Origin: Chloroflexota bacterium
GTDB lineage: Bacteria; Chloroflexota; UBA11872; VXOZ01
DNA length: 64,000 nucleotides
Direction of reading: 5' to 3'
Assembly: GCA_965221905.1 (NCBI GenBank)
Contig: OZ244922.1
Coordinates: 2,720,001 to 2,784,000 of the forward strand
Shown here piece by piece: positions 50,368-64,000 of the stretch. Within the stretch, counting starts at the first letter, position 1. The number at the start of each line of letters is the position of its first letter. The notes beneath the pieces were generated by a model. It searched no databases. It saw only the letters and a list, made by a program, of their open reading frames with translations, and was not told where the DNA came from. The position numbers and the translations under genes were made by a program.

Positions 50368-51093
50368 CTATCGTCCCCCCAGAAACGCTTCGAGCACAAG
50401 CCGAAACTGACGCAAGCATTCTATTGCAAAATTGCGCTGATTAGCCACACGTCCGGAATCCGCAAGTAAGTGCGTGGTTGTCCAGACCTGCTCCTGTCCA
50501 GCATGTAAGTCAGCCGTAGACTGGGACCTGGCGCCCCGCCCACATGTGTGTTCTCCTTCATCGCTTGACTCTGCCGTAGCGCGGGGACTTGTCCCCCGCT
50601 CCTCTGCCAGTGGACCGATTCCACTCGGCCCAGCCACGGCAAGACACGCCATTCCCACCGGTTTCGCGGAACGGCGGCCGGTTTGGGGACCGGCAATGCC
50701 ACTCTCCGCCAGCGCCCAATCGGACGCAAAGGTGCGCCGGGCTAATTGTGCCAGGGCTGCCGCGTATTCCTCGCTCACAACACCGTGTTCGCTTGCTACG
50801 CCCTGAATACTCTGCACGAGCGGCGTCCTGCTGCCCGCGTATACAATAATCCCACCGCGAAACCACTCTTCATGCGCGGGAATAGCATGGATGAGCATGG
50901 CGATGGCGCCACCGGCGGCAGTCTCTGCCACTGCGAGCGTCTCTCCCCTTTTGGCAAGTGTCGTTCCAACTCCATCGAGCAGACGCTGCAGGTTGAGGCT
51001 TGTTTTCGCCCCCGCACCTTGACTGCGCGCCTCGGCATCTGAGCCCCGGTCTAAAGATGACCTTGCCGGACTATTCAGCCAGGGTGCGTTCAT
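50368..51093 (-). CDS. CinA C-terminal / PncC-like protein, divergent (start uncertain)
   Basis: LAVAETAAGG, FRGGIIVY, HGVVSEE, ESGIAGP, KPVG. Confidence 0.7.
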   Translation of the reverse strand: MNAPWLNSPARSSLDRGSDAEARSQGAGAKTSLNLQRLLDGVGTTLAKRGETLAVAETAAGGAIAMLIHAIPAHEEWFRGGIIVYAGSRTPLVQSIQGVASEHGVVSEEYAAALAQLARRTFASDWALAESGIAGPQTGRRSAKPVGMACLAVAGPSGIGPLAEERGTSPRATAESSDEGEHTCGRGARSQSTADLHAGQEQVWTTTHLLADSGRVANQRNFAIECLRQFRLVLEAFLGGR

Positions 51094-52942
51094 CGCCATC
51101 TCGCTGGGTGACATTATCACGGTCCATTTGCTCCAACAATGGCAGCACGTACTTCCGACTTGTGCCAAAGACGTCTCGTAGCTGTGCCACCGTGGCGCGA
51201 GCTTCCCGCGCCAAATGCTCACGCACCTGCGCCACCGCCTGTTGGTAGGCTCGACGCGAATAGATGAGGTCATTGTTCACCCGGACAATCCGGCCCTGCG
51301 CTGCCAACACGTTCACCAAGTCATCGTCCAATGCGAGCGACGTACGAAGGTCGCCCAGACTCGGGGGCGCCATTGGCTCTCGTTCCAGCACGTCGAGCAA
51401 AGCCGTCGCCACTTCCTCTTGCACCGCGCTCAACGCAATCGCAAACCCAAATTGACGCAGGTCGCCTCTCTCTTCCGCTATCACCTCGTCGGCACAGAGC
51501 CGCCGCACGATCTGGTTGAAGACGCGGCTTTCCAATCCAAGCTGCCGCCGCACTTCCTCTTTTCCCATGCCGTTGCGCAAGGAGTAGCGCACGTGAAAGT
51601 CCTGGACTACAGAGACCAAACGCTCTGTAATCTCGGCCCAACCGGCAGCGGAATAAAGAAAACTGCCCAAGTCTACGGCTCGTTCCGCACCCAGCAGCCC
51701 TGCCAAAACGTCGTCAATCTGCGCGGTGGTGAGAGGCAACACTCGATTGAGCACGTCTTGCGTGCAGGGCTCCCGCTGCCGAATAGCCTGCAGCACCACG
51801 TCATCGGGCGAGCCGCGCTCCAACGTATCCAAGGTCGAAATCACGTCTTCCGCAAAGCGTTTATGGCGGGGCGGGTATGGGTCGAGGACTTCGCCGCCAC
51901 CAAGGGTACAAGACGGGCTGAGTTGCCGGATGATGAAAAGATCGCCCTTGATGAGACTTGCAGGTTTAACGAGAAGCAGTTGTACAAGCCCATCTTCCCC
52001 TGGCGAGATGGTCTCACGATCGAGAAGCCTAACACGGGCGAGAGTTTCCATGGTCCCGGCATGGAATGTAACCATAGTCCCGTGAACCAGCGGGCGAGGC
52101 GCGGCAGGCAAGAGCCGGATGCGTACGTCCGCAAAGCGCGTAGCGGCAAGCATGCGGGGCAATGTGAGTACCTGTCCGCGATAGACTTCATCAACGTCAA
52201 CCCCGCCTACGTTGACGGCAACGCGATTACCAGGCAGAGCGTTCTCGATCTTGTGCTTATGACTCTGCAGCCCGCGTATGCGGCCGCTCATGTTGCCGGG
52301 AACGACGTGGACGTCGTCACCGACGTGGAGTTGACCGTCGAGCAGCGTGCCGGTGACCACGGTGCCAAAGCCACTGAGGGTGAAGGCCCGATCGATAGGC
52401 AGGCGCGGGCGGCCTACGTCCCGTTTAGCTTCCGTATCTGCGAGCAAGTCATCGAGGACACTGCACAGTTCGTCTAATCCCTCTCCAGAAATTGCGGATA
52501 CACGCACTAGCGGGCTATCGGCGAGTACAGTACCTGCCACCGTTTCACGCAGCTCTTCCTCAACAAGGTGCAACCAATCTTCGTCTTCAACCAGGTCGCA
52601 CCGCGTTAGCACCAGTACTCCCGCCGGCACCCGCAGCAAGTCCAGAATGTCAAGGTGCTCGCGAGTCTGGGGCATCACGCCTTCATCGGCGGCAACCACC
52701 AACAGACCCGCATCAATTCCACCCACACCCGCCAGCATGTTCTTGATGAAACGCTCGTGACCGGGCACGTCGACTATTGAAATCTCCTTGCCGCTGGGCA
52801 GCGTAAGCCACGCGAATCCCAGATCGATCGTCAGCCCACGCTCTTTTTCTTCGCGCAGCCGGTCCGGGTCTATACCCGTAAGCGCCTGAATCAGCGTAGA
52901 CTTGCCGTGGTCGACGTGACCTGCAGTGCCAATCGTGAACAT
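51071..52942 (-). CDS. selB: Selenocysteine-specific elongation factor
   Basis: GTAGHVDHGKS, DRLREEKERGLTIDLGFA, DVPGHERFIKNMLAG, C-terminal winged helix with SRKYVLPLLE. Confidence 0.96.
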   Translation of the reverse strand: MFTIGTAGHVDHGKSTLIQALTGIDPDRLREEKERGLTIDLGFAWLTLPSGKEISIVDVPGHERFIKNMLAGVGGIDAGLLVVAADEGVMPQTREHLDILDLLRVPAGVLVLTRCDLVEDEDWLHLVEEELRETVAGTVLADSPLVRVSAISGEGLDELCSVLDDLLADTEAKRDVGRPRLPIDRAFTLSGFGTVVTGTLLDGQLHVGDDVHVVPGNMSGRIRGLQSHKHKIENALPGNRVAVNVGGVDVDEVYRGQVLTLPRMLAATRFADVRIRLLPAAPRPLVHGTMVTFHAGTMETLARVRLLDRETISPGEDGLVQLLLVKPASLIKGDLFIIRQLSPSCTLGGGEVLDPYPPRHKRFAEDVISTLDTLERGSPDDVVLQAIRQREPCTQDVLNRVLPLTTAQIDDVLAGLLGAERAVDLGSFLYSAAGWAEITERLVSVVQDFHVRYSLRNGMGKEEVRRQLGLESRVFNQIVRRLCADEVIAEERGDLRQFGFAIALSAVQEEVATALLDVLEREPMAPPSLGDLRTSLALDDDLVNVLAAQGRIVRVNNDLIYSRRAYQQAVAQVREHLAREARATVAQLRDVFGTSRKYVLPLLEQMDRDNVTQRDGDERTLAE

Positions 52943-54309: not shown

Positions 54310-55500
54310 CTATTTCTCGCACACTACGCCATCGCCGTCGCCGTCCCGCGGCGGATCGGTGAACAACCCAATCGGAAAGCCACGTCCGGCACCAGAGTCC
54401 CCCTGAATGCGTTCTTCTCCAGCGGCAATTGCTTCATCGCAGCTTGCGTACTTGGCTGTTGGGGTCGCAGATGCAGACGGTGTCGGTGTAGGTGTGTGCG
54501 TTGGGGTTGCCGTCGGCGTTGGTGTGCGCGTCGGTCTTGGCGTAGGCAGAGGCGTAGGCGTCGGAGTGCCCAAAATTGCCGGCCTTGGTGACGGCGTCGG
54601 CAAGAGTGAGGGCCGAGGAATCGGGCTGGAAGTTGGCGCGGGCGTGCGCCCCGCAGTTGGCGTAGGAGTTGGCGTGCGCCGAATCAACGATCCGGGTGTC
54701 GGCGTCGACGTTGGCGTCCCCGACGGCGTCGGCGTAGCACTCGGCGTGGGTGTCGGCGTAGGAGTTGGCAGCACAATCAATGGATCTTCATCACACGCTT
54801 CCAGCATCGTGCGCAGTGCGCTCACCTCATCGTCATCCGCGCTCAGTCCCCAAAATACCTTGACAGCAATCCAATCTTGCGCGTATTGGCACCATGCAGA
54901 CTCCGCAGGCGGTTTCCATTCACCTGGATCGCGCGCCCCTTTTGAGCGATTGCTCGACGCCGAGACCGCCGTCAAGGTCTGCGGCAAGGTCAGATCGTTC
55001 GCATACGCGTAGCGCCGCTCATAAGACCACCGCCATCCTCCCGATTCATGCACTTCGGCGAGCGGCACCATGTGGTCGATGTCCACGCCTGACGCGCTCG
55101 TAATCGTCCTCTCGTCGTACCACGACAACCATGTGCCGTCCGGCACGCAAGACTCATCGTCACTTTCGAGCGTACTCGCTTCGGCAACCAAGACTTCCTC
55201 GCGCGTGTCACAGCCGTCGTCATCTATGTCACCCCAACCGTTCTGCTCGTACCTCCAGCGTCCGTAGGTCACGCCGCCATCGGATTCCGGCGCTGTCTTG
55301 AGCTGCACACCCGCAATATACGTCGTCGAAGGAATGGCTTGCTCCGGTTCGCAATTGGCCTCGTAGAAAACATCTACGCCGCTCCAGCCAGCGAGTTTCA
55401 AGCTCTCCCGCGCAGCATTGAGTTGTGTGCATACATCCGTTGTCGGGCCATCGTCGATGGTGATGGCAAACCAAACGATCGCTAGGAACAACGCCAGCAC
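54310..55500 (-). CDS. Secreted/anchored HNH (DUF1524-like) nuclease with a Pro/Thr linker and Excalibur-like Ca-binding tail
   Basis: N-terminal hydrophobic helix; DGCDTREEVL, DIDHMVPL, YAND, NRSKG, WCQYA; (PT)n linker; YASC...RDGDGDGVVCE. Confidence 0.85.
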   Translation of the reverse strand: MLALFLAIVWFAITIDDGPTTDVCTQLNAARESLKLAGWSGVDVFYEANCEPEQAIPSTTYIAGVQLKTAPESDGGVTYGRWRYEQNGWGDIDDDGCDTREEVLVAEASTLESDDESCVPDGTWLSWYDERTITSASGVDIDHMVPLAEVHESGGWRWSYERRYAYANDLTLPQTLTAVSASSNRSKGARDPGEWKPPAESAWCQYAQDWIAVKVFWGLSADDDEVSALRTMLEACDEDPLIVLPTPTPTPTPSATPTPSGTPTSTPTPGSLIRRTPTPTPTAGRTPAPTSSPIPRPSLLPTPSPRPAILGTPTPTPLPTPRPTRTPTPTATPTHTPTPTPSASATPTAKYASCDEAIAAGEERIQGDSGAGRGFPIGLFTDPPRDGDGDGVVCEK

Positions 55501-59619: not shown

Positions 59620-59970
59620 GGCCATTGAACGCAACGTCTCAAGACTTCCTCACGATTTTCTGTATTCTCCAGGCCAAAGTGAAGCGATGTATTGCATTAT
59701 TCTGTAGGCATACATACAGAATCGGGCTGTCACCTTGGTATACTTAGAGCCAAGCAGGTCGGATGTACACCCAAGGCGCGGCAACCCAAAAAACCCGCGC
59801 CGAAGTTACATGCGGCGCTGGCGACCGGGCACACAGAACGCCTGGTTGCAGTGCGCTGACTCTGCAACAGATAGCCAAGGTGGTTTGGCTTATCAGAGCG
59901 CAACGGCGATCCATGCTGTGGCGTTGACCGTTTCGTTCAATGAACGTGTTGGGAAGGGAGGGCATATCGC

Positions 59971-60708
59971 ATGTTTCTCGATGTAGGAATTGCATTCGGC
60001 GGTGGAATTCTCTCTTTTCTCTCGCCGTGCTTTCTCCCACTCATACCGGCCTACCTTGTTTACCTCGGTGGACGCCAAGCCAACGCCGTCCGCCACGATA
60101 AGTCACCGCGCCGTGCCGTCTTCATCAATGCCCTCGCTTTCATTCTCGGATTTGGCACGATATTCATCGCCCTCGGTGTAGCCATTACCTTCGTCGGCCT
60201 TGCCTTTCAGCAGGGGCTGCCTACGATGCGGCTTGTCGGCGGCGGGTTGCTCGTCATCTTTGGACTAAGTTTCCTGGGCCTCCTCCGTGTGCCCTGGCTG
60301 CAGCAAATCCTGCAGCGTGAAGTTTCGCTCCGCAACACGCCGCTGGGCCGCATCGACACGGAGAAGACCGGTCCAATCACCTCTTACTTGATCGGTCTCG
60401 TATTCGGGACGGGCTGGACGCCCTGTGTCGGCCCGATACTCGGGGCAATTCTGCTCCAGGCTTCCGGTTCCGACACTGTGCTCCGCGGGGGCATCTTGCT
60501 GGCAATTTACGCCGCCGGCATGGGCATTCCGTTTCTCGCCATGGCAGTGGCCATCGATCGGGCCTCTGCGCTTCTCAAATGGCTCAGGTCCCACATGTTG
60601 GCGGTCGAACGGGTGAGTGGCGTGTTCCTGATCCTAATGGGGATTGCGGTCGCAACGAACTTTCTAGCGATGATCTCTGGCATACTCGGGATATACTCGC
60701 TAGGATAG
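59971..60708 (+). CDS. ccdA: CcdA/DsbD-beta transmembrane electron transporter
   Basis: FLSPCFLP and GWTPCVGP redox Cys motifs; about 6 TM segments. Confidence 0.94.
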   Translation: MFLDVGIAFGGGILSFLSPCFLPLIPAYLVYLGGRQANAVRHDKSPRRAVFINALAFILGFGTIFIALGVAITFVGLAFQQGLPTMRLVGGGLLVIFGLSFLGLLRVPWLQQILQREVSLRNTPLGRIDTEKTGPITSYLIGLVFGTGWTPCVGPILGAILLQASGSDTVLRGGILLAIYAAGMGIPFLAMAVAIDRASALLKWLRSHMLAVERVSGVFLILMGIAVATNFLAMISGILGIYSLG

Positions 60709-60911
60709 CAGGTAAGGGATCAAATTCTTCACTAGGGTGGTGTACGATCAGTGCCGGTATGTTCGAGACTCCAAAGACGAATGAGGTCAAAGGACGGTAG
60801 TTCCGGAGTGGGCACTGGATGTTAGTATGCCGGACTATGCCTAATAGGGTCTGAGGCCATAGAACTTTCTGAGTGTCGCGTGTAAGAAAGAAACAATAGG
60901 GAGTGAGAGCA

Positions 60912-61580
60912 ATGCGACGACGATCTGTATGCTCGCTACTGCTCAGCGGTGCGTCCGTAGCCGCGCTAGCGGCGTGTGGCGGCGGCTCAACACTGCTAGA
61001 AACTGAGGAGCAAGAGCCGGCAAGCGCCAAGCAAGAGGCCGCGGCGGAGCCGACCGCCGCCCCTGCGGAAGCTCAACCGACGGCTGAACCCGCGAAGCAA
61101 GCTGAAGTTGAGCCGACGGCCGCGCCAACCCTTGACCTGCCCAACTTTGGGAAGGCACCGGAGATTACGCTCACGGAATGGCTCAATTCCGAGCCCATTA
61201 CGTTGGCAAGCTTGGAGGGCAAGGCTTCCGCTCTAATTGTCTTCTGGACATACACCTGACCGATTTGCCGCGGCGAAATCCCCAGTTGGGTGGATATTCA
61301 GAGCAAGTACGTTGACGACGGCTTCAAACTCATCAGCATCCACATCCCGGCCTTGGGTGCTTCCACGGACGTAAGCGTCATTGCCGAACAGGCATCAAAA
61401 CTTAACGCTGCCTTTCCGATTGGGATAGACAACGGTAAGGTAATCTGGGACGCCTTCGGCAACAATGCCTTTCCGGTAGCCTACGGTATCGATAAGCAAG
61501 GGAACATTCGCTCTAAGCAGGTCGGTCCCGGCATCGATACGATCATTGAGGTAATAGAGAAGCTCAAAGCGGCGGGCTAG
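60912..61580 (+). CDS. Selenoprotein: Tat-lipoprotein TlpA/DipZ-like thioredoxin, UPIC active site (Sec at TGA 61257-61259)
   Basis: ORFs 60903-61259 and 61290-61580 are in the same frame and read FWTYT-U-PICRGEIP...ISIH.P...IDN...FP...IDKQGNIR; signal RRRS..LAAC. Confidence 0.88.
61278..61295 (+). promoter_or_regulatory. Putative bacterial SECIS hairpin
   Basis: ATCC-CC-AGTTG-GG-T-GGAT beginning 18 nt after the UGA; G near the loop start, bulged U. Confidence 0.7.
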
Positions 61581-61617
61581 CACTACGCCACTTGAGTTAG
61601 CGCTCTTTGGAAGAGTT

Positions 61618-61654
61618 GCCCGCTTGCGGTCCGATAGTCTCACCGCAAGCGGGC
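61618..61654. terminator. Hairpin between the convergent selenoprotein genes
   Basis: GCCCGCTTGCGGT-N11-ACCGCAAGCGGGC followed by CTTATT. Confidence 0.6.
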
Positions 61655-61868
61655 CTTATTGCCTAGAGTCGCAAACCGGCGTGCCAGATGCGAGTCTCTT
61701 GTGCCGTGAAGACGAAGGGCTGCAGGAACCAACGGCGCATACTTGAGCGGGGAGGGGTCTCCTTTAGCTGACGATCAGACTGTGATGCTTACGGACCCCT
61801 CAAACTAAACTTTCTTCCTTACGAACGAGCTACATGTATCCGAAACTATTGAGCAGCGCCCCCACCTC

Positions 61869-62540
61869 TTAGCCAAATTCCTTGAGCTTCTCCACGGCTT
61901 CAATCACGATCTCGAAGTTACCGCCGCCGAATTTCGCAAACCGGATATTGCCCTGCCGATCGATGCCGTAGAATGCCGGCCACGTACGGTTGCCAAAGGC
62001 ATTCCAAAGTACCAGATCGTTGTCCACTACCACCGGATAGTTGACGCCGAGGGCGTCGGCCCGCTCCTTAATCTGGCTGATGTCACCAGAAGAACCGGCG
62101 TGCGGAAAGTGCACGCTGATCAGCTTGAAGCGGTCGTCGTGGTAGGTATTGAAGAGGTCCACCAAACTGGGGACTTCGCCGCGGCACACCGGTCAGGTGT
62201 AAGTCCAGAAGACCACCAGGGCAGCGGCTTTGCCTTCCAGACTCGCCATGGTGATGGGTTCAGAGTTGAACCAACCTGTGAGGGTAATCTCGGGTGCCTT
62301 GCCGAGGTTAGGCAGGTCAAGTGTTGGCGCCTGTGTGGCCGCAGGTTGCGCCTCCGCTTGGCTCTCAGACTTTGGCTGCTCTTGCGCCGGGGCGGCAGTC
62401 GGCTCCGCCGCGGCCTCTTGCGTGGTGCTTGCCGGCTCTTGCTCCTCAGATTCCGGCAGTGCTGAGCCGCCGCCGCACGCTGCCAGCGCGGCTACGGACG
62501 CGCCGCTGAGCAATAGCGAGCATACAGAACGTCGTTGCAT
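61869..62540 (-). CDS. Selenoprotein: Tat-lipoprotein TlpA/DipZ-like thioredoxin, UPVC active site (Sec at TGA 62195-62193)
   Basis: ORFs 62193-62540 and 61869-62189 are in frame and read FWTYT-U-PVCRGEVP...ISVHFP...VVDND...NRTWP...IDRQGNIR. Confidence 0.88.
62157..62174 (-). promoter_or_regulatory. Putative bacterial SECIS hairpin
   Basis: GTCC-CC-AGTTT-GG-T-GGAC at the same offset as in the paralogue, with a compensatory A-U to G-C base pair. Confidence 0.7.
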
Positions 62541-62787
62541 CGTTCGCCTCCAATTCCATTACCGTGCCAGCTAGCTGCTGTTTATCCAAAGCGCGCTTTG
62601 TTCCGCTGAACCGCTCTCTCCCGTACTGTTTCACATGGCATCGCGGCCTTCACGCTTCACTTATTTCTATCGTAACGAGTACGATCCAAGATTTCCAATT
62701 ACATAGTCTCTGAACACTTCAGCTACTGAGCACGCCTGTGCTAGGCTACTCGAAAAGGTAACTATACAAAGACAAGGAGCGAGTCTA

Positions 62788-64000
62788 ATGGACTCTCCGG
62801 ATCTTCCCCAGCCCGAACCAACGCTCGGCAATACCGCTTGGTGGACACATGACCGTTTCGGCATTTTCATTCACTGGGGAATCTACGCGCTGGCCGCCCG
62901 CCACGAATGGGTGAAGAAGTACGAGGAAATCAGCGACGCGGACTACCAACCGTACTTCGACCACTTCGACCCCGATCTCTACGACCCGGCGGCCTGGGCG
63001 CGGAGCGCGCGGGAGGCAGGGATGCGCTATGTCGTCCTCACCAGCAAGCACCATGACGGTTTCTGCTTGTGGGACAGCCGGCTTACCGATTACAAGGCCA
63101 CGAATACCCCCGCCCGGCGCGACCTCTTGCAGCCGTTCGTCGAGGCCTTCCGCGCTGAGGGACTCAAGGTCGGCTTCTACTATTCGCTGATTGACTGGCA
63201 CCATCCTGAGTTTCCCGTAGACGGCGTGCATCCCCAGGCAAACGACCTCGCGTTCCGGGAGGCTACCAAAGATCGCGACGTGCGCAAGTACGCCGCATAC
63301 CTCCACGGCCAGGTGCGTGAAATTCTCACCATGTTCGGCACCATCGATCTCCTCTGGCTCGACTTCTCCTACTCCCAGCAAGACTATGGCTGGAGCAAGG
63401 GCAAGGGCAAAGACGACTGGCAGAGTGAGGAACTCATCCGGATGGTGCGCGAGTTACAGCCCGATATCATCATCAACAATCGCTCTGAATTGGAGCAGGA
63501 CTTCCACACGCCCGAGCAATTCATCCCGCCCAGTTGGCTGCACGTAGACGGCAAGCCCGTCAATTGGGAAGCCTGCCAGACCCTCAATGGCTCCTGGGGC
63601 TACCACCGGGACAATCTGGACTGGAAGTCGCCCAAACTGCTCGTGCAGATGCTCATCGATTGCGTCTCCAAGGGCGGCAATATGCTGATGAACGTCGGCC
63701 CCACGGGACGCGGCGAGTTCGATCCACGCGCCCAGGCGACGTTGGCAGAAATCGGCGAATGGATGCGGCAGCACGGGCGCTCGATCTACGGGTGCACGCA
63801 AGCGCCGTTCACACCGCCGGCGGATTGCCGATACACGTATAACCCGGAGACGAATCGGCTCTATCTTCACGTCTTCGCCTGGCCGCTCAAGTATCTGCAC
63901 TTGCCGGGCCTCCGCAACCGCGTACGCTACGCGCAACTCCTGAACGACGGTTCCGAAGTCAAGACCTTCGACTTCACCCAGCATCACCGCTATCCCAGCG
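62788..64000 (+). CDS. Alpha-L-fucosidase (GH29), 3' end beyond the window
   Basis: Not in the ORF track because it has no stop. Manual translation: MDSPDL...WWTHDRFGIFIHWG, TSKHHDGFCLW, YYSLIDWHHP, WLDFS, WEACQT, VSKGGNMLMNVGP. Confidence 0.93.
   Translation, partial: MDSPDLPQPEPTLGNTAWWTHDRFGIFIHWGIYALAARHEWVKKYEEISDADYQPYFDHFDPDLYDPAAWARSAREAGMRYVVLTSKHHDGFCLWDSRLTDYKATNTPARRDLLQPFVEAFRAEGLKVGFYYSLIDWHHPEFPVDGVHPQANDLAFREATKDRDVRKYAAYLHGQVREILTMFGTIDLLWLDFSYSQQDYGWSKGKGKDDWQSEELIRMVRELQPDIIINNRSELEQDFHTPEQFIPPSWLHVDGKPVNWEACQTLNGSWGYHRDNLDWKSPKLLVQMLIDCVSKGGNMLMNVGPTGRGEFDPRAQATLAEIGEWMRQHGRSIYGCTQAPFTPPADCRYTYNPETNRLYLHVFAWPLKYLHLPGLRNRVRYAQLLNDGSEVKTFDFTQHHRYPS

What the first reader, a model, noticed from the sequence alone, without database searches (positions are those of the whole stretch)
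59971..62540. Hidden extracytoplasmic selenium redox module: CcdA plus two Tat-lipoprotein UxxC thioredoxins
Seen: four small ORFs are really two genes of about 222 aa. Each has a twin-Arg/lipobox signal, an Ala/Pro/Glu stalk and a thioredoxin fold in which TGA occupies exactly the first Cys of CxxC (FWTYT-U-PIC and FWTYT-U-PVC). ccdA is directly upstream and selB about 8 kb away. Known: FWTYxCxxC...H.P...N..WP is the DipZ/TlpA-like signature, CcdA delivers electrons to such domains, and Sec typically replaces the attacking Cys. Inference: a split, selenium-using DipZ-like relay feeding two surface reductases with diverged substrate faces; no cytochrome c maturation or Msr target is adjacent. 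UxxC thioredoxin-fold selenoproteins are known in general; the paired, Tat-exported, CcdA-linked arrangement is what seems unusual, and standard annotation would miss it.
Basis: partly seen in the sequence, partly recalled or inferred. Interest (0 to 1): 0.85.

Follow-up and report, generated by a model that had tools for sequence, protein, structure and literature searches.

The report
Two unannotated surface selenoprotein reductases
Two neighbouring genes that look broken by a stop codon really encode membrane-tethered thioredoxin-like enzymes with selenocysteine in the active site, a well-supported but not surprising addition to a known class of bacterial selenoproteins.

Summary
Window 60912-61580 (+) and 61869-62540 (-) are two convergent genes of 222 and 223 aa. 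Each has one in-frame TGA at the first position of a U-P-[IV]-C redox motif.

The TGA is very likely read as selenocysteine:
- It is kept in 32 of 32 copies from the 17 genomes of the genus.
- The downstream half evolves as coding sequence.
- A hairpin 18 nt after the UGA is conserved, with one covarying pair and frozen third-codon positions. It fits three of the four criteria of the published bacterial SECIS model; the energy criterion is met by gene B and narrowly missed by gene A.
- The genome has tRNA-Sec, selA, selB and selD, and uses TGA as an ordinary stop elsewhere.

The proteins are lipobox lipoproteins on an Ala/Pro/Glu-rich stalk. Their closest relative by sequence and fold is the thioredoxin-like ectodomain of M. 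tuberculosis DipZ. ccdA is adjacent in 16 of 16 loci of the genus. It is adjacent or fused to the Cys homologues in other Chloroflexota examined.

Not supported:
- Tat export is unproven.
- The arrangement is not very unusual. UxxC AhpC/TSA-type selenoproteins are a catalogued family, and CcdA plus two thioredoxin lipoproteins is known in Cys form (pneumococcal Etrx1/2).
- The substrate is unknown.

Verdict: a new member of a known kind, missed by public gene calls. Interest is moderate.

The parts
59971..60708 (+). ccdA: membrane thiol-disulfide electron transporter, 245 aa. Both Pro-Cys motifs are present (…SPC… in the first helix, …TPC… mid-protein).
   Evidence: Pfam DsbD_TM 68.6 bits, cut-off 27.1. 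Cys20 and Cys152 are invariant in 13 aligned CcdA sequences. It is adjacent to the selenoprotein gene in 16 of 16 loci of the genus.
60912..61580 (+). Gene A: DipZ-type thioredoxin-fold selenolipoprotein, 222 aa plus stop, motif FWTYT-U-PIC
60912..60977 (+). Gene A signal peptide MRRR…LAAC, with the lipobox Cys at residue 22
   Evidence: Read from the sequence; conserved in the orthologues
60978..61136 (+). Gene A stalk, residues 23-75, rich in Ala/Pro/Glu/Gln/Thr and predicted disordered
   Evidence: 79% A/P/E/Q/T over residues 24-75. Block-mean pLDDT is 41-51 over residues 1-70.
61257..61259 (+). Sec codon (TGA) of gene A, residue 116
61275..61298 (+). Candidate SECIS hairpin of gene A (core 61278-61295): 6-bp stem with a bulged U, loop AGUUG, 24 nt between the UGA and the loop
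   Evidence: Criteria taken from PMC13188914.
61137..61577 (+). Gene A thioredoxin-like domain
   Evidence: Block-mean pLDDT is 93-98 over residues 81-220 (85 for residues 71-80); 142 residues have pLDDT >=90. Best fold match is DipZ 5cyy/2hyx.
61618..61654 (.). 12-bp perfect inverted repeat (61618-61629 / 61643-61654) between the two convergent genes; a possible two-way terminator without a T-tract
   Evidence: Read directly. The consensus scan did not call it.
61869..62540 (-). Gene B: paralogous selenolipoprotein, 223 aa plus stop, motif FWTYT-U-PVC, 65% identical to gene A
62193..62195 (-). Sec codon (TGA) of gene B, residue 116
62154..62177 (-). Candidate SECIS hairpin of gene B (core 62157-62174); the closing pair is G-C where gene A has A-U
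62475..62540 (-). Gene B signal peptide MQRR…LAAC, with the lipobox Cys at residue 22
51071..52942 (-). selB, the Sec-specific elongation factor. It belongs to the decoding machinery, not to the locus.
   Evidence: TIGR00475 360.7 bits, cut-off 242. SelB wing and beta-barrel domains.

Best explanation
Genes A and B encode two paralogous extracytoplasmic thiol/selenol-disulfide reductases of the DipZ/TlpA/ResA type.

How they are made. Each is made with a lipoprotein signal peptide and is lipid-anchored at Cys22 to the outer face of the cytoplasmic membrane. A disordered stalk of about 50 residues holds it away from the membrane. During translation, SelB with Sec-tRNA(Sec) binds a short hairpin that starts 18 nt after the in-frame UGA and inserts selenocysteine. 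This is the N-terminal, attacking residue of the U-P-[IV]-C motif at the start of helix 1.

How they work. The oxidised selenenylsulfide is recycled by the adjacent CcdA, which carries reducing equivalents from cytoplasmic thioredoxin across the membrane through its two Pro-Cys motifs. The reduced proteins then reduce oxidised targets outside the cell. The targets are unknown.

How they arose. They are a split, shortened DipZ ectodomain without the C-terminal Thioredoxin_10 domain. Cys became Sec, and the gene was then duplicated within this Chloroflexota genus.

What is shown and what is inferred. Shown by computation: gene structure, conservation of the TGA, the hairpin, a complete Sec machinery, the fold, and the ccdA linkage. 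Inferred: actual Sec insertion, lipidation, electron flow from CcdA, and the substrates.
For: (1) The TGA is kept. All 32 copies from 17 genomes of the genus carry TGA at this codon: 30 A/B-type copies (14 genomes hold two, 2 hold one) and the 2 third-paralogue copies I fetched. In one search, all 47 matches with E<=6e-35 carry an in-frame TGA. The 31-sequence protein alignment A2, which mixes Sec and Cys forms, has this column and the partner Cys invariant.

(2) Homologues have Cys at this position. Examples are DipZ of M. tuberculosis (alignment) and the Cys forms in other Chloroflexota with FWTFACINC.

(3) The part after the TGA evolves as coding sequence. Differences by codon position 1/2/3 over 90 codons are 758/721/1864 in clade A and 1162/989/3661 in clade B.

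(4) A SECIS-like hairpin is conserved.
- Pairs 22-27 with 33-39, counted from the U of UGA, are 100% paired in 26 distinct rows.
- Pair 22-39 is A-U in 23 sequences and G-C in 9 and is never broken. It changes state about 4 times on the gene tree, at least 2 of them forced by well-supported branches.
- Third-codon positions 24, 27, 30, 33 and 36 are invariant, while positions 9, 45, 48, 51 and 57 vary.
- Distant Sec forms have perfect hairpins at the same place with different stem letters and loops AGUUUG or GUU. L054/L056 are 38-39% identical to gene A by search; L057/L058 are 34-36% by search and 30-31% in alignment A2.
- The loop, the G at loop position 2 followed by U, and the 24-nt spacing fit the published bSECIS model (PMC13188914, section 5, read).
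- The energy is -9.5 kcal/mol for B and -7.2 for A, against the model's -7.5.

(5) The machinery is complete: tRNA-Sec 67.1 bits with anticodon TCA, selA 565.6 bits, selB 360.7 bits, and selD 380.4 bits, itself with one in-frame TGA.

(6) TGA is a normal stop in this genome. It closes 592 of 1861 frames of 300 codons or more.

(7) Family. Pfam AhpC-TSA and Redoxin hit above cut-off. The best PDB sequence and fold matches are DipZ, then YkuV, ResA and Etrx2. The model is confident over the domain, with block-mean pLDDT 93-98 over residues 81-220.

(8) CcdA link.
- ccdA is adjacent in 16 of 16 loci of the genus.
- It is adjacent to the Cys homologue in 3 of 3 loci of another family (L050-52).
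- It is fused to the homologous domain in L053: DsbD_TM plus Redoxin in one 436-aa ORF by Pfam. L055 shows the same by read-through frame and tblastn only.

(9) Contigs from RNA libraries of three studies lie over both genes and bridge both TGAs. This is weak evidence; see evidence against.
Against: - No protein-level evidence exists for Sec insertion.
- Folding 64-88 nt around each UGA is no more stable than shuffled sequence (z +0.6 to -0.5). The hairpin of gene A misses the -7.5 kcal/mol criterion by 0.3.
- Only one of the six stem pairs covaries within the genus; the other five never vary.
- Rfam gives no match. No hit reached a gathering score, and the best E-value was 6.7.
- The sequences come from kin, so counts overstate independence.
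- CcdA as donor rests on adjacency, fusion in relatives and family knowledge. The genome has a second ccdA. The third Sec paralogue and the Sec forms in L054 and L056-58 have no ccdA within about 1.5 kb.
- No substrate gene is adjacent.
- The RNA-library contigs may contain DNA and cannot show strand or a single transcript (warning).
Confidence: 0.72

Rival explanations
1. Same proteins and same Sec decoding, but they act chiefly as extracytoplasmic seleno-peroxidases or sulfenic-acid reductases. The selenolate would react directly with peroxides and CcdA would recycle it, rather than the proteins reducing protein disulfides.
For: The best Pfam family is AhpC/TSA, and the catalogue name for such UxxC proteins is 'Prx-like thiol:disulfide oxidoreductase' (PMC13188914). 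DsbD-family transporters are known to feed a cell-envelope peroxiredoxin (PMC3322552, title and abstract start seen). No MsrA or MsrB was found in this 99.6%-complete genome, so the Etrx-to-Msr route cannot apply. RNA-library contigs from one run labelled 'sponge metagenome' lie on the stretch (X17).
Against: The motif and fold are those of TlpA/ResA/DipZ reductases (W-x-x-U-x-x-C with a cis-Pro loop), not of peroxiredoxins. The nearest structures are all reductases.
Confidence: 0.15
2. They are the CcmG/ResA-type reductases of cytochrome c maturation, fed by CcdA.
For: The best NCBIfam hit is ResA PRK03147 (51 and 42.8 bits). The genome has CcmF and CcmC. Its ccm cluster also holds CcmH and a CcmE-like ORF, which I named by eye. 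I saw no thioredoxin-like gene in that cluster. ResB was not found.
Against: The ResA score is far below its cut-off of 170. The dsbE model TIGR00385 finds two Cys-type proteins elsewhere (94.4 and 69.4 bits) and neither gene A nor B at E<=0.01. The ccm cluster lies about 170 kb away. Three Sec paralogues are more than that task needs.
Confidence: 0.06
3. The TGA is a true stop. The genes are split or decaying, only N-terminal fragments of about 115 aa are made, and the C-terminal ORFs are separate or dead.
For: This is how public gene calls treat them. The search for short proteins returned 48 fragments of 74-121 aa, mostly 96-115 aa, unnamed or 'hypothetical' apart from one jgi name that does not fit a thioredoxin. 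No close full-length protein was found (4 hits, all 36% identity or less).
Against: One and the same stop at one codon in 32 of 32 copies down to 42% identity, with no other stops or frameshifts, is not decay. The downstream part is under purifying selection. A fragment ending before CxxC would lack the fold. The hairpin and the Sec machinery are present.
Confidence: 0.03

Closest known systems
DipZ (Rv2874) ectodomain of Mycobacterium tuberculosis, PDB 2hyx / 5cyy
   Same: It is the closest solved relative by sequence (E 2.3e-19) and by fold (E 2.6e-14, 32% identity, rmsd 2.4 over 152 columns). The FW-x-Y-x-C/U-x-x-C motif is shared, and so is the functional link to a CcdA-type membrane domain.
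   Different: DipZ is one polypeptide (CcdA domain, thioredoxin-like domain, C-terminal domain) and uses Cys. Here CcdA is a separate gene. PF17991, which the split Cys homologue L051 carries, is absent from genes A and B. Anchoring is by a lipobox and stalk, the attacking residue is Sec, and the gene is duplicated.
'Prx-like thiol:disulfide oxidoreductase' selenoprotein family (PF00578, UxxC/UxxU), as listed in reviews of prokaryotic selenoproteomes (PMC13188914, PMC9312934; table passages read)
   Same: PF00578 hits above the gathering score, with a UxxC motif. By the reviews' own naming rule (domain plus Sec motif) genes A and B fall in this class.
   Different: The reviews' example is a different protein, which I did not compare. 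The passages I read say nothing about a DipZ-type subfamily, a lipoprotein anchor or a ccdA link. The supplements were closed and may list such members.
CcdA1-Etrx1 / CcdA2-Etrx2 of Streptococcus pneumoniae (PMC3914529, outline and abstract read)
   Same: CcdA works with two paralogous surface-exposed thioredoxin-family lipoproteins of the same fold. Etrx2 structures 4hqz and 2yp6 are among the fold matches.
   Different: The Etrx proteins use Cys and reduce MsrAB2. This genome gave no MsrA or MsrB match. Here a single ccdA is adjacent to both genes. Sequence similarity is low (20% identity in the fold alignment).
NCBIfam selenoprotein models NF041057 (Rcas_1661 family thioredoxin-like (seleno)lipoprotein) and NF041054 (ResA-like WAxxUGC)
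   Same: Both are thioredoxin-fold proteins with Sec in the redox motif, and the first is a lipoprotein. Weak matches: NF041054 at 39.5 and 27.6 bits, NF041057 at 16.3 and 15.4 bits.
   Different: The scores are far below the cut-offs of 300 and 190, and the motif differs. These are other families.

Membership tests
Bacterial selenoprotein gene (UGA decoded as Sec) | In-frame UGA aligned with Cys in homologues | tested here: met
   U116 aligns with the first Cys of CxxC in DipZ and in Cys forms from other Chloroflexota. The column is invariant in alignment A2.
Bacterial selenoprotein gene (UGA decoded as Sec) | bSECIS per the published model: 3-9 nt loop, 4-16 bp stem, G in the first two loop positions, 16-37 nt from the UGA to the loop | tested here: met
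   Loop AGUUG or AGUUU, 6-bp stem with a bulged U, 24-nt spacing. The criteria are quoted from PMC13188914.
Bacterial selenoprotein gene (UGA decoded as Sec) | bSECIS folding energy of -7.5 kcal/mol or lower | tested here: inconclusive
   Gene B gives -9.5 and gene A -7.2 kcal/mol for positions 16-45. G19-C42 is present in 29 of 32 copies and is G-U in gene A of the window.
Bacterial selenoprotein gene (UGA decoded as Sec) | Genome encodes tRNA-Sec, SelA, SelB and SelD | tested here: met
   all four score above the curated cut-offs.
Bacterial selenoprotein gene (UGA decoded as Sec) | Selenium actually present in the protein | not testable with these tools
   This needs 75Se labelling or mass spectrometry.
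Prx-like thiol:disulfide oxidoreductase selenoproteins (PF00578, UxxC) | PF00578 domain and a UxxC motif | tested here: met
   43 and 50.8 bits against a cut-off of 26. The motifs are U-P-I-C and U-P-V-C.
DipZ (fused CcdA-thioredoxin-like electron transporter) | Thioredoxin-like domain of the DipZ type | tested here: met
   Best PDB hit by sequence and by fold.
DipZ (fused CcdA-thioredoxin-like electron transporter) | CcdA membrane domain in the same polypeptide | tested here: not met
   ccdA is a separate ORF ending 203 nt upstream. Fused forms exist in L053, confirmed by Pfam, and in L055, by read-through frame and tblastn only.
DipZ (fused CcdA-thioredoxin-like electron transporter) | C-terminal domain after the thioredoxin-like domain (PF17991 Thioredoxin_10) | tested here: not met
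   There is no PF17991 hit, and the proteins end after the thioredoxin domain. The Cys homologue L051 has it at 67.7 bits.
ResA / CcmG (DsbE) of cytochrome c maturation | Score above the NCBIfam cut-offs (PRK03147: 170; TIGR00385: 123) | tested here: not met
   PRK03147 gives 51 and 42.8 bits. TIGR00385 finds other genes, not A or B, at E<=0.01.
Rcas_1661 thioredoxin-like selenolipoprotein (NF041057) and WAxxUGC (NF041054) | Score above the curated cut-offs (190; 300) | tested here: not met
   NF041057 gives 16.3 and 15.4 bits; NF041054 gives 39.5 and 27.6 bits.
Bacterial lipoprotein | Lipobox [LVI][ASTVI][GAS]C at the end of a signal peptide (consensus recalled) | tested here: met
   L-A-A-C at residues 19-22 in 30 of 30 A/B-type copies. 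Lgt and LspA were not searched for.
Tat substrate | Twin-arginine signal recognised by Tat signal profiles (PF10518, TIGR01409) | tested here: inconclusive
   RR is invariant in the 30 A/B copies, and TatC is present. No Tat profile hit appears at E<=10 for A or B. Of 8 RR-bearing control signals from this genome, 3 gave weak Pfam TAT_signal hits and 5 gave none. The own third paralogue has R-S-R, and L057/L058 have no RR.
CcdA | DsbD_TM domain with two conserved Cys | tested here: met
   68.6 bits. Cys20 and Cys152 are invariant in 13 sequences.
CcdA-Etrx-MsrAB pathway | An extracytoplasmic methionine sulfoxide reductase as acceptor | tested here: not met
   PF01625 and PF01641 gave no match in the own genome, which is 99.64% complete in one contig.

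The most novel reading that the evidence does not exclude
In this uncultured Chloroflexota genus, the DipZ ectodomain was detached from CcdA, switched from Cys to Sec, put on a long lipid-anchored stalk and multiplied to three copies. Near-identical pieces occur in RNA-library runs, one labelled 'sponge metagenome'. Together the copies would form a selenium-dependent surface redox shield that reaches away from the membrane. It would take over the repair or detoxifying work that other bacteria give to Msr and envelope peroxiredoxins, which this genome appears to lack. If so, the oxidative-stress defence of the organism's surface would depend on selenium supply.
Probability: 0.15. Interest if true: 0.6.

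Novelty: new member of a known kind. Interest (0 to 1): 0.4.

Why it matters
Three points matter.

1. It is a clean, well-controlled case of selenoprotein genes that gene callers split. In a collection of 5.8 billion proteins I found only halves of these genes and no close full-length form. That argues for a dedicated profile for this DipZ-type U-P-[IV]-C / U-I-N-C subfamily.

2. It extends Sec use to the DipZ branch of extracytoplasmic reductases. The Cys/Sec homologue pairs and the fused, split and lipid-anchored forms within one phylum make good material for asking why Sec replaces Cys outside the cell.

3. The conserved hairpin, whose stem differs in letters between distant lineages, gives a SECIS example for Chloroflexota.

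It does not overturn anything. Sec at the attacking Cys of a thioredoxin fold, and CcdA feeding such proteins, are both established ideas.

Tried and rejected
- Rfam scan of 59900-62800 at E<=10 gave only three chance snoRNA-like rows.
- Single-sequence folding around the UGA is not better than shuffles. The case for the hairpin rests on comparison between sequences instead.
- The promoter and terminator consensus scan gave nothing usable.
- G146 showed '1 TGA'. In the stretch I fetched (L059) I could not find a U..C frame of the family, so that genome is not counted as a verified Sec form.
- My attempt to list the other thioredoxin-like ORFs of the genome with a read-through ORF script returned nothing useful. 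I used the dsbE family search instead.
I stopped there, so no complex was predicted and CcdA-protein contact remains untested.
- The RNA-library contigs cannot rank expression or show strand. None of the 40 listed differences falls on either TGA, but 141 more were not shown.
- I considered genome-wide TGA recoding and rejected it: TGA closes 592 of 1861 long frames.
- I considered the Etrx-to-Msr pathway and rejected it, because no Msr was found.
- Literature: 'CcdA' plus 'selenoprotein' gave 12 papers, of which 11 were listed, none on this topic by title. 'DipZ' plus 'selenocysteine' gave 1 off-topic paper. Supplements were closed, so family lists there were not seen.
Full report
**What is there**

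Under the standard code the region holds a 245-aa ORF (59971-60708, +) and four short ORFs. Reading TGA through joins the short ORFs into two convergent genes with one TGA each.
- Gene A runs 60912-61580 (+), 222 aa. Its start at ATG 60912 is fixed by the orthologues.
- Gene B runs 61869-62540 (-), 223 aa.
- The TGAs lie at 61257-61259 and 62193-62195, in FWTYT-U-PIC and FWTYT-U-PVC.
- The two proteins are 65% identical.
- Both begin M-[RQ]-R-R-S-V-C-S-L-L-L-S-G-A-S-V-A-A-L-A-A-C, that is, a signal peptide ending in an L-A-A-C lipobox. A stretch follows that is 79% Ala/Pro/Glu/Gln/Thr over residues 24-75, then a thioredoxin-like domain.
- GGAG-type ribosome-binding sites precede both ATGs (read).

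**Is the TGA decoded as selenocysteine?**

1. The own genome has the whole machinery. It is one contig of 3.52 Mb, 99.64% complete.
   - tRNA-Sec: 67.1 bits, anticodon TCA.
   - selA: 565.6 bits.
   - selB: 360.7 bits, at window 51071-52942.
   - selD: 380.4 bits, with an in-frame TGA of its own.
2. TGA is an ordinary stop in this genome. It closes 592 of 1861 long frames.
3. The TGA is conserved across the genus.
   - In a search of 61 related genomes, all 47 matches with E<=6e-35 contain an in-frame TGA. All are from the 17 genomes of the genus, the own genome included.
   - I extracted 32 copies: 30 of the A/B type and 2 of a third paralogue. All 32 have TGA at the same codon, and none has any other stop within the conserved coding region.
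   - Fourteen genomes hold two A/B-type genes on opposite strands and two hold one. The 69%-complete genome G014 gave only the third paralogue and a fragment.
4. The sequence after the TGA evolves as protein-coding. Third-position differences dominate: 758/721/1864 in clade A and 1162/989/3661 in clade B over 90 codons.
5. Homologues carry Cys at this column.

**The SECIS candidate**

Counting from the U of UGA, positions 22-27 pair with 33-39, with U35 bulged. The loop is AGUUG in gene A and AGUUU in gene B.
- On 26 distinct sequences every cell is paired.
- Pair 22-39 is A-U in 23 of 32 sequences and G-C in 9, and is never mixed. It needs about four changes on the gene tree, at least two of them forced by well-supported branches. 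The A/G change is an Ile/Val replacement and the U/C change is synonymous, so the link between them is at the RNA level.
- Third-codon positions inside the hairpin (24, 27, 30, 33, 36) are invariant in all 32 sequences. Those outside it (9, 45, 48, 51, 57) vary freely.
- Sec forms from two other genera of the phylum have perfect hairpins at the same distance with different stem letters and loops AGUUUG or GUU. L054/L056 are 38-39% identical to gene A by search, with motif FWTYG-U-INC. L057/L058 are 34-36% identical by search and 30-31% in alignment A2, with motif DMWTFG-U-INC.
- The published consensus asks for a 3-9 nt loop, a 4-16 bp stem, G in the first two loop positions, 16-37 nt from the UGA to the loop, and an energy of -7.5 kcal/mol or lower (PMC13188914, section 5 and Fig. 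2 legend). All are met except the energy for gene A: -7.2 against -9.5 for gene B.
- Weaknesses: single-sequence folds are no better than shuffles, five of the six pairs never vary within the genus, and Rfam has no matching model.

**What the proteins are**

- Pfam gives AhpC-TSA and Redoxin above cut-off.
- NCBIfam gives only sub-threshold hits: ResA at 51 and 42.8 bits against 170, WAxxUGC at 39.5 and 27.6 against 300, and the Rcas_1661 selenolipoprotein at 16.3 and 15.4 against 190. No curated selenoprotein model covers them.
- The closest solved protein is the DipZ ectodomain of M. tuberculosis, by sequence (E 2.3e-19) and by fold (E 2.6e-14). YkuV, ResA, SOQ1, NHLRC2 and pneumococcal Etrx2 follow.
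- The AlphaFold model is confident over the thioredoxin domain: block-mean pLDDT 93-98 over residues 81-220, and 142 residues at 90 or more. It is disordered over residues 1-70. U116 sits at the start of helix 117-133.

**Link to CcdA**

- The upstream ORF is a DsbD_TM protein (68.6 bits) with both Cys invariant.
- ccdA is next to the A/B-type gene in 16 of 16 loci of the genus.
- In another family of the class, the Cys homologue is a 403-aa membrane-anchored protein with the DipZ C-terminal domain PF17991. It sits beside a ccdA in 3 of 3 loci.
- In L053 the homologous domain is fused to a CcdA domain in one 436-aa ORF, confirmed by Pfam. L055 shows the same by read-through frame and tblastn only.
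- This fusion, plus family knowledge that CcdA/DsbD reduce such domains (recalled, and stated in PMC3781833, passage read), is the basis for the electron path. It is inference.
- Against it: there is a second ccdA in the genome, and no ccdA lies within about 1.5 kb of the third paralogue or of the Sec forms in L054 and L056-58.

**Distribution**

- In 301 genomes sampled across the phylum, 65 have a match at E<=1e-15.
- The 27 rows from the genus all carry a TGA.
- Of the 61 rows outside the genus, 5 carry one TGA and 56 carry none. Three of those 56 rows come from the unpublished genomes G303 and G216.
- I verified U at the motif in four of the five TGA rows and could not verify G146.
- The relatives are titled 'MAG: Chloroflexota bacterium'.
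- So the Sec form predates the genus, while the ccdA-linked U-P-[IV]-C pair looks like an expansion within the genus.

**Substrate**

- The neighbours are Mur ligase, Ddl, Prs and an alpha-L-fucosidase. None is a redox partner.
- No MsrA or MsrB match exists in the genome, so the pneumococcal Etrx-to-MsrAB route cannot apply.
- ResB was not found. CcmF and CcmC, CcmH and a CcmE-like ORF that I named by eye lie about 170 kb away. The dsbE model prefers two Cys-type proteins elsewhere, at 94.4 and 69.4 bits. A CcmG role for genes A and B is therefore unlikely.
- Clades A and B differ at 22 fixed positions. These include 185-186 and 189-190 around the invariant cis-Pro188, and 126-134 on helix 1. 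This is compatible with different partners but proves nothing.

**Tat export**

- RR is invariant in the 30 A/B copies and TatC is present.
- A rough scan found 82 lipobox signals in the genome, 46 of them with RR. Many look like classical [ST]-R-R-x-F-L signals ending in …LAACG.
- Pfam and NCBIfam gave no Tat-related hit for gene A or B at E<=10. Of 8 RR-bearing control signals, 3 gave weak Pfam TAT_signal hits (E 0.002-0.055, all below the cut-off) and 5 gave none.
- The own third paralogue has R-S-R, and two distant Sec forms have plain MKR signals.
- I rate Tat export at roughly 35-40%. It remains unproven.

**Annotation and expression**

- A near-length search of 5.8 billion proteins gave 4 hits, all at 36% identity or less.
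- The search for shorter proteins gave 48 fragments of 74-121 aa, mostly 96-115 aa. They match one half or the other. They are unnamed or 'hypothetical', apart from one jgi name that does not fit a thioredoxin.
- Contigs from RNA libraries of three studies cover the stretch at 90-99% likeness and bridge both TGAs. Records 10, 20 and 25 bridge the TGA of gene A, and records 24 and 26 that of gene B.
- The tool warns that DNA may be present in such libraries and that contigs show neither strand nor transcript units.

**Comparison with what is known**

- Reviews list 'Prx-like thiol:disulfide oxidoreductase' (PF00578, UxxC/UxxU), 'thiol:disulfide interchange protein', and DsbA-like and DsbG-like (NF041057) selenoproteins (PMC13188914 and PMC9312934, table passages read).
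- Two surface thioredoxin lipoproteins fed by CcdA are described in S. pneumoniae (PMC3914529, abstract and outline).
- 'CcdA' plus 'selenoprotein' returned 12 papers, of which 11 were listed, none on this topic by title. 'DipZ' plus 'selenocysteine' returned one off-topic paper. Supplements were closed.

**Verdict**

This is a real, well-supported pair of unannotated selenoprotein genes: a DipZ-type branch of a known class.

Noticed in passing
G000:C1:414862-415341 (+), outside the window; locus L028 1432-1992: A third paralogue of 187 aa with motif FWTYG-U-INC, a lipobox signal and the same hairpin, but no ccdA within 1.5 kb. It is flanked by what looks by eye like the 3' end of a leucyl-tRNA synthetase gene and by another ORF; neither neighbour was scanned. 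It is present with a TGA in every genome of the genus searched.
   Followed up: partly
Whole genome G000: No MsrA (PF01625) or MsrB (PF01641) match in a 99.64%-complete single-contig genome. This is unusual for a free-standing bacterium, and it removes the usual acceptor of CcdA-Etrx systems.
   Followed up: no
G000:C1:1231935-1232864 (-), locus L021: selD itself carries an in-frame TGA at the usual N-terminal Cys/Sec site. A GCGCAG-GUU-CUGCGC hairpin follows about 28 nt downstream, with the same GUU loop as in genes A and B.
   Followed up: partly
G000:C1:2321088-2321519 (+), and many genomes of the class: Further weak thioredoxin-like matches with one in-frame TGA: a 295-aa frame in the own genome and 500-790-aa frames in other families. 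They suggest a larger set of thioredoxin-fold selenoproteins in these Chloroflexota. I did not inspect them.
   Followed up: no
Whole genome G000: A rough scan found 82 lipobox signal peptides, 46 with twin arginines. Many are of the form [ST]-R-R-x-F-L…LAACG on proteins of about 450-480 aa. Tat-type lipoprotein signals may be common in this organism.
   Followed up: partly
window 61618-61654: A perfect 12-bp inverted repeat with a 13-nt loop lies midway between the two convergent genes. It has no T-tract and the terminator scan did not call it.
   Followed up: no
window 62378-62415: RNA-library contigs of two runs skip 36 nt inside the stalk-coding part of gene B. This is most simply stalk-length variation among related strains; orthologue stalks also differ in length.
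   Followed up: no
window 54310-55500 (-): A 396-aa ORF between a methyltransferase gene and a Mur ligase gene has no Pfam hit at E<=1e-5.
   Followed up: no
G000:C1:2513079-2513789 (locus L070 4079-4789): A second ccdA (237 aa) sits between a 480-aa lipoprotein gene with an RR signal and two large ORFs of 927 and 394 aa on the opposite strand. The two large ORFs were not scanned for families.
   Followed up: no
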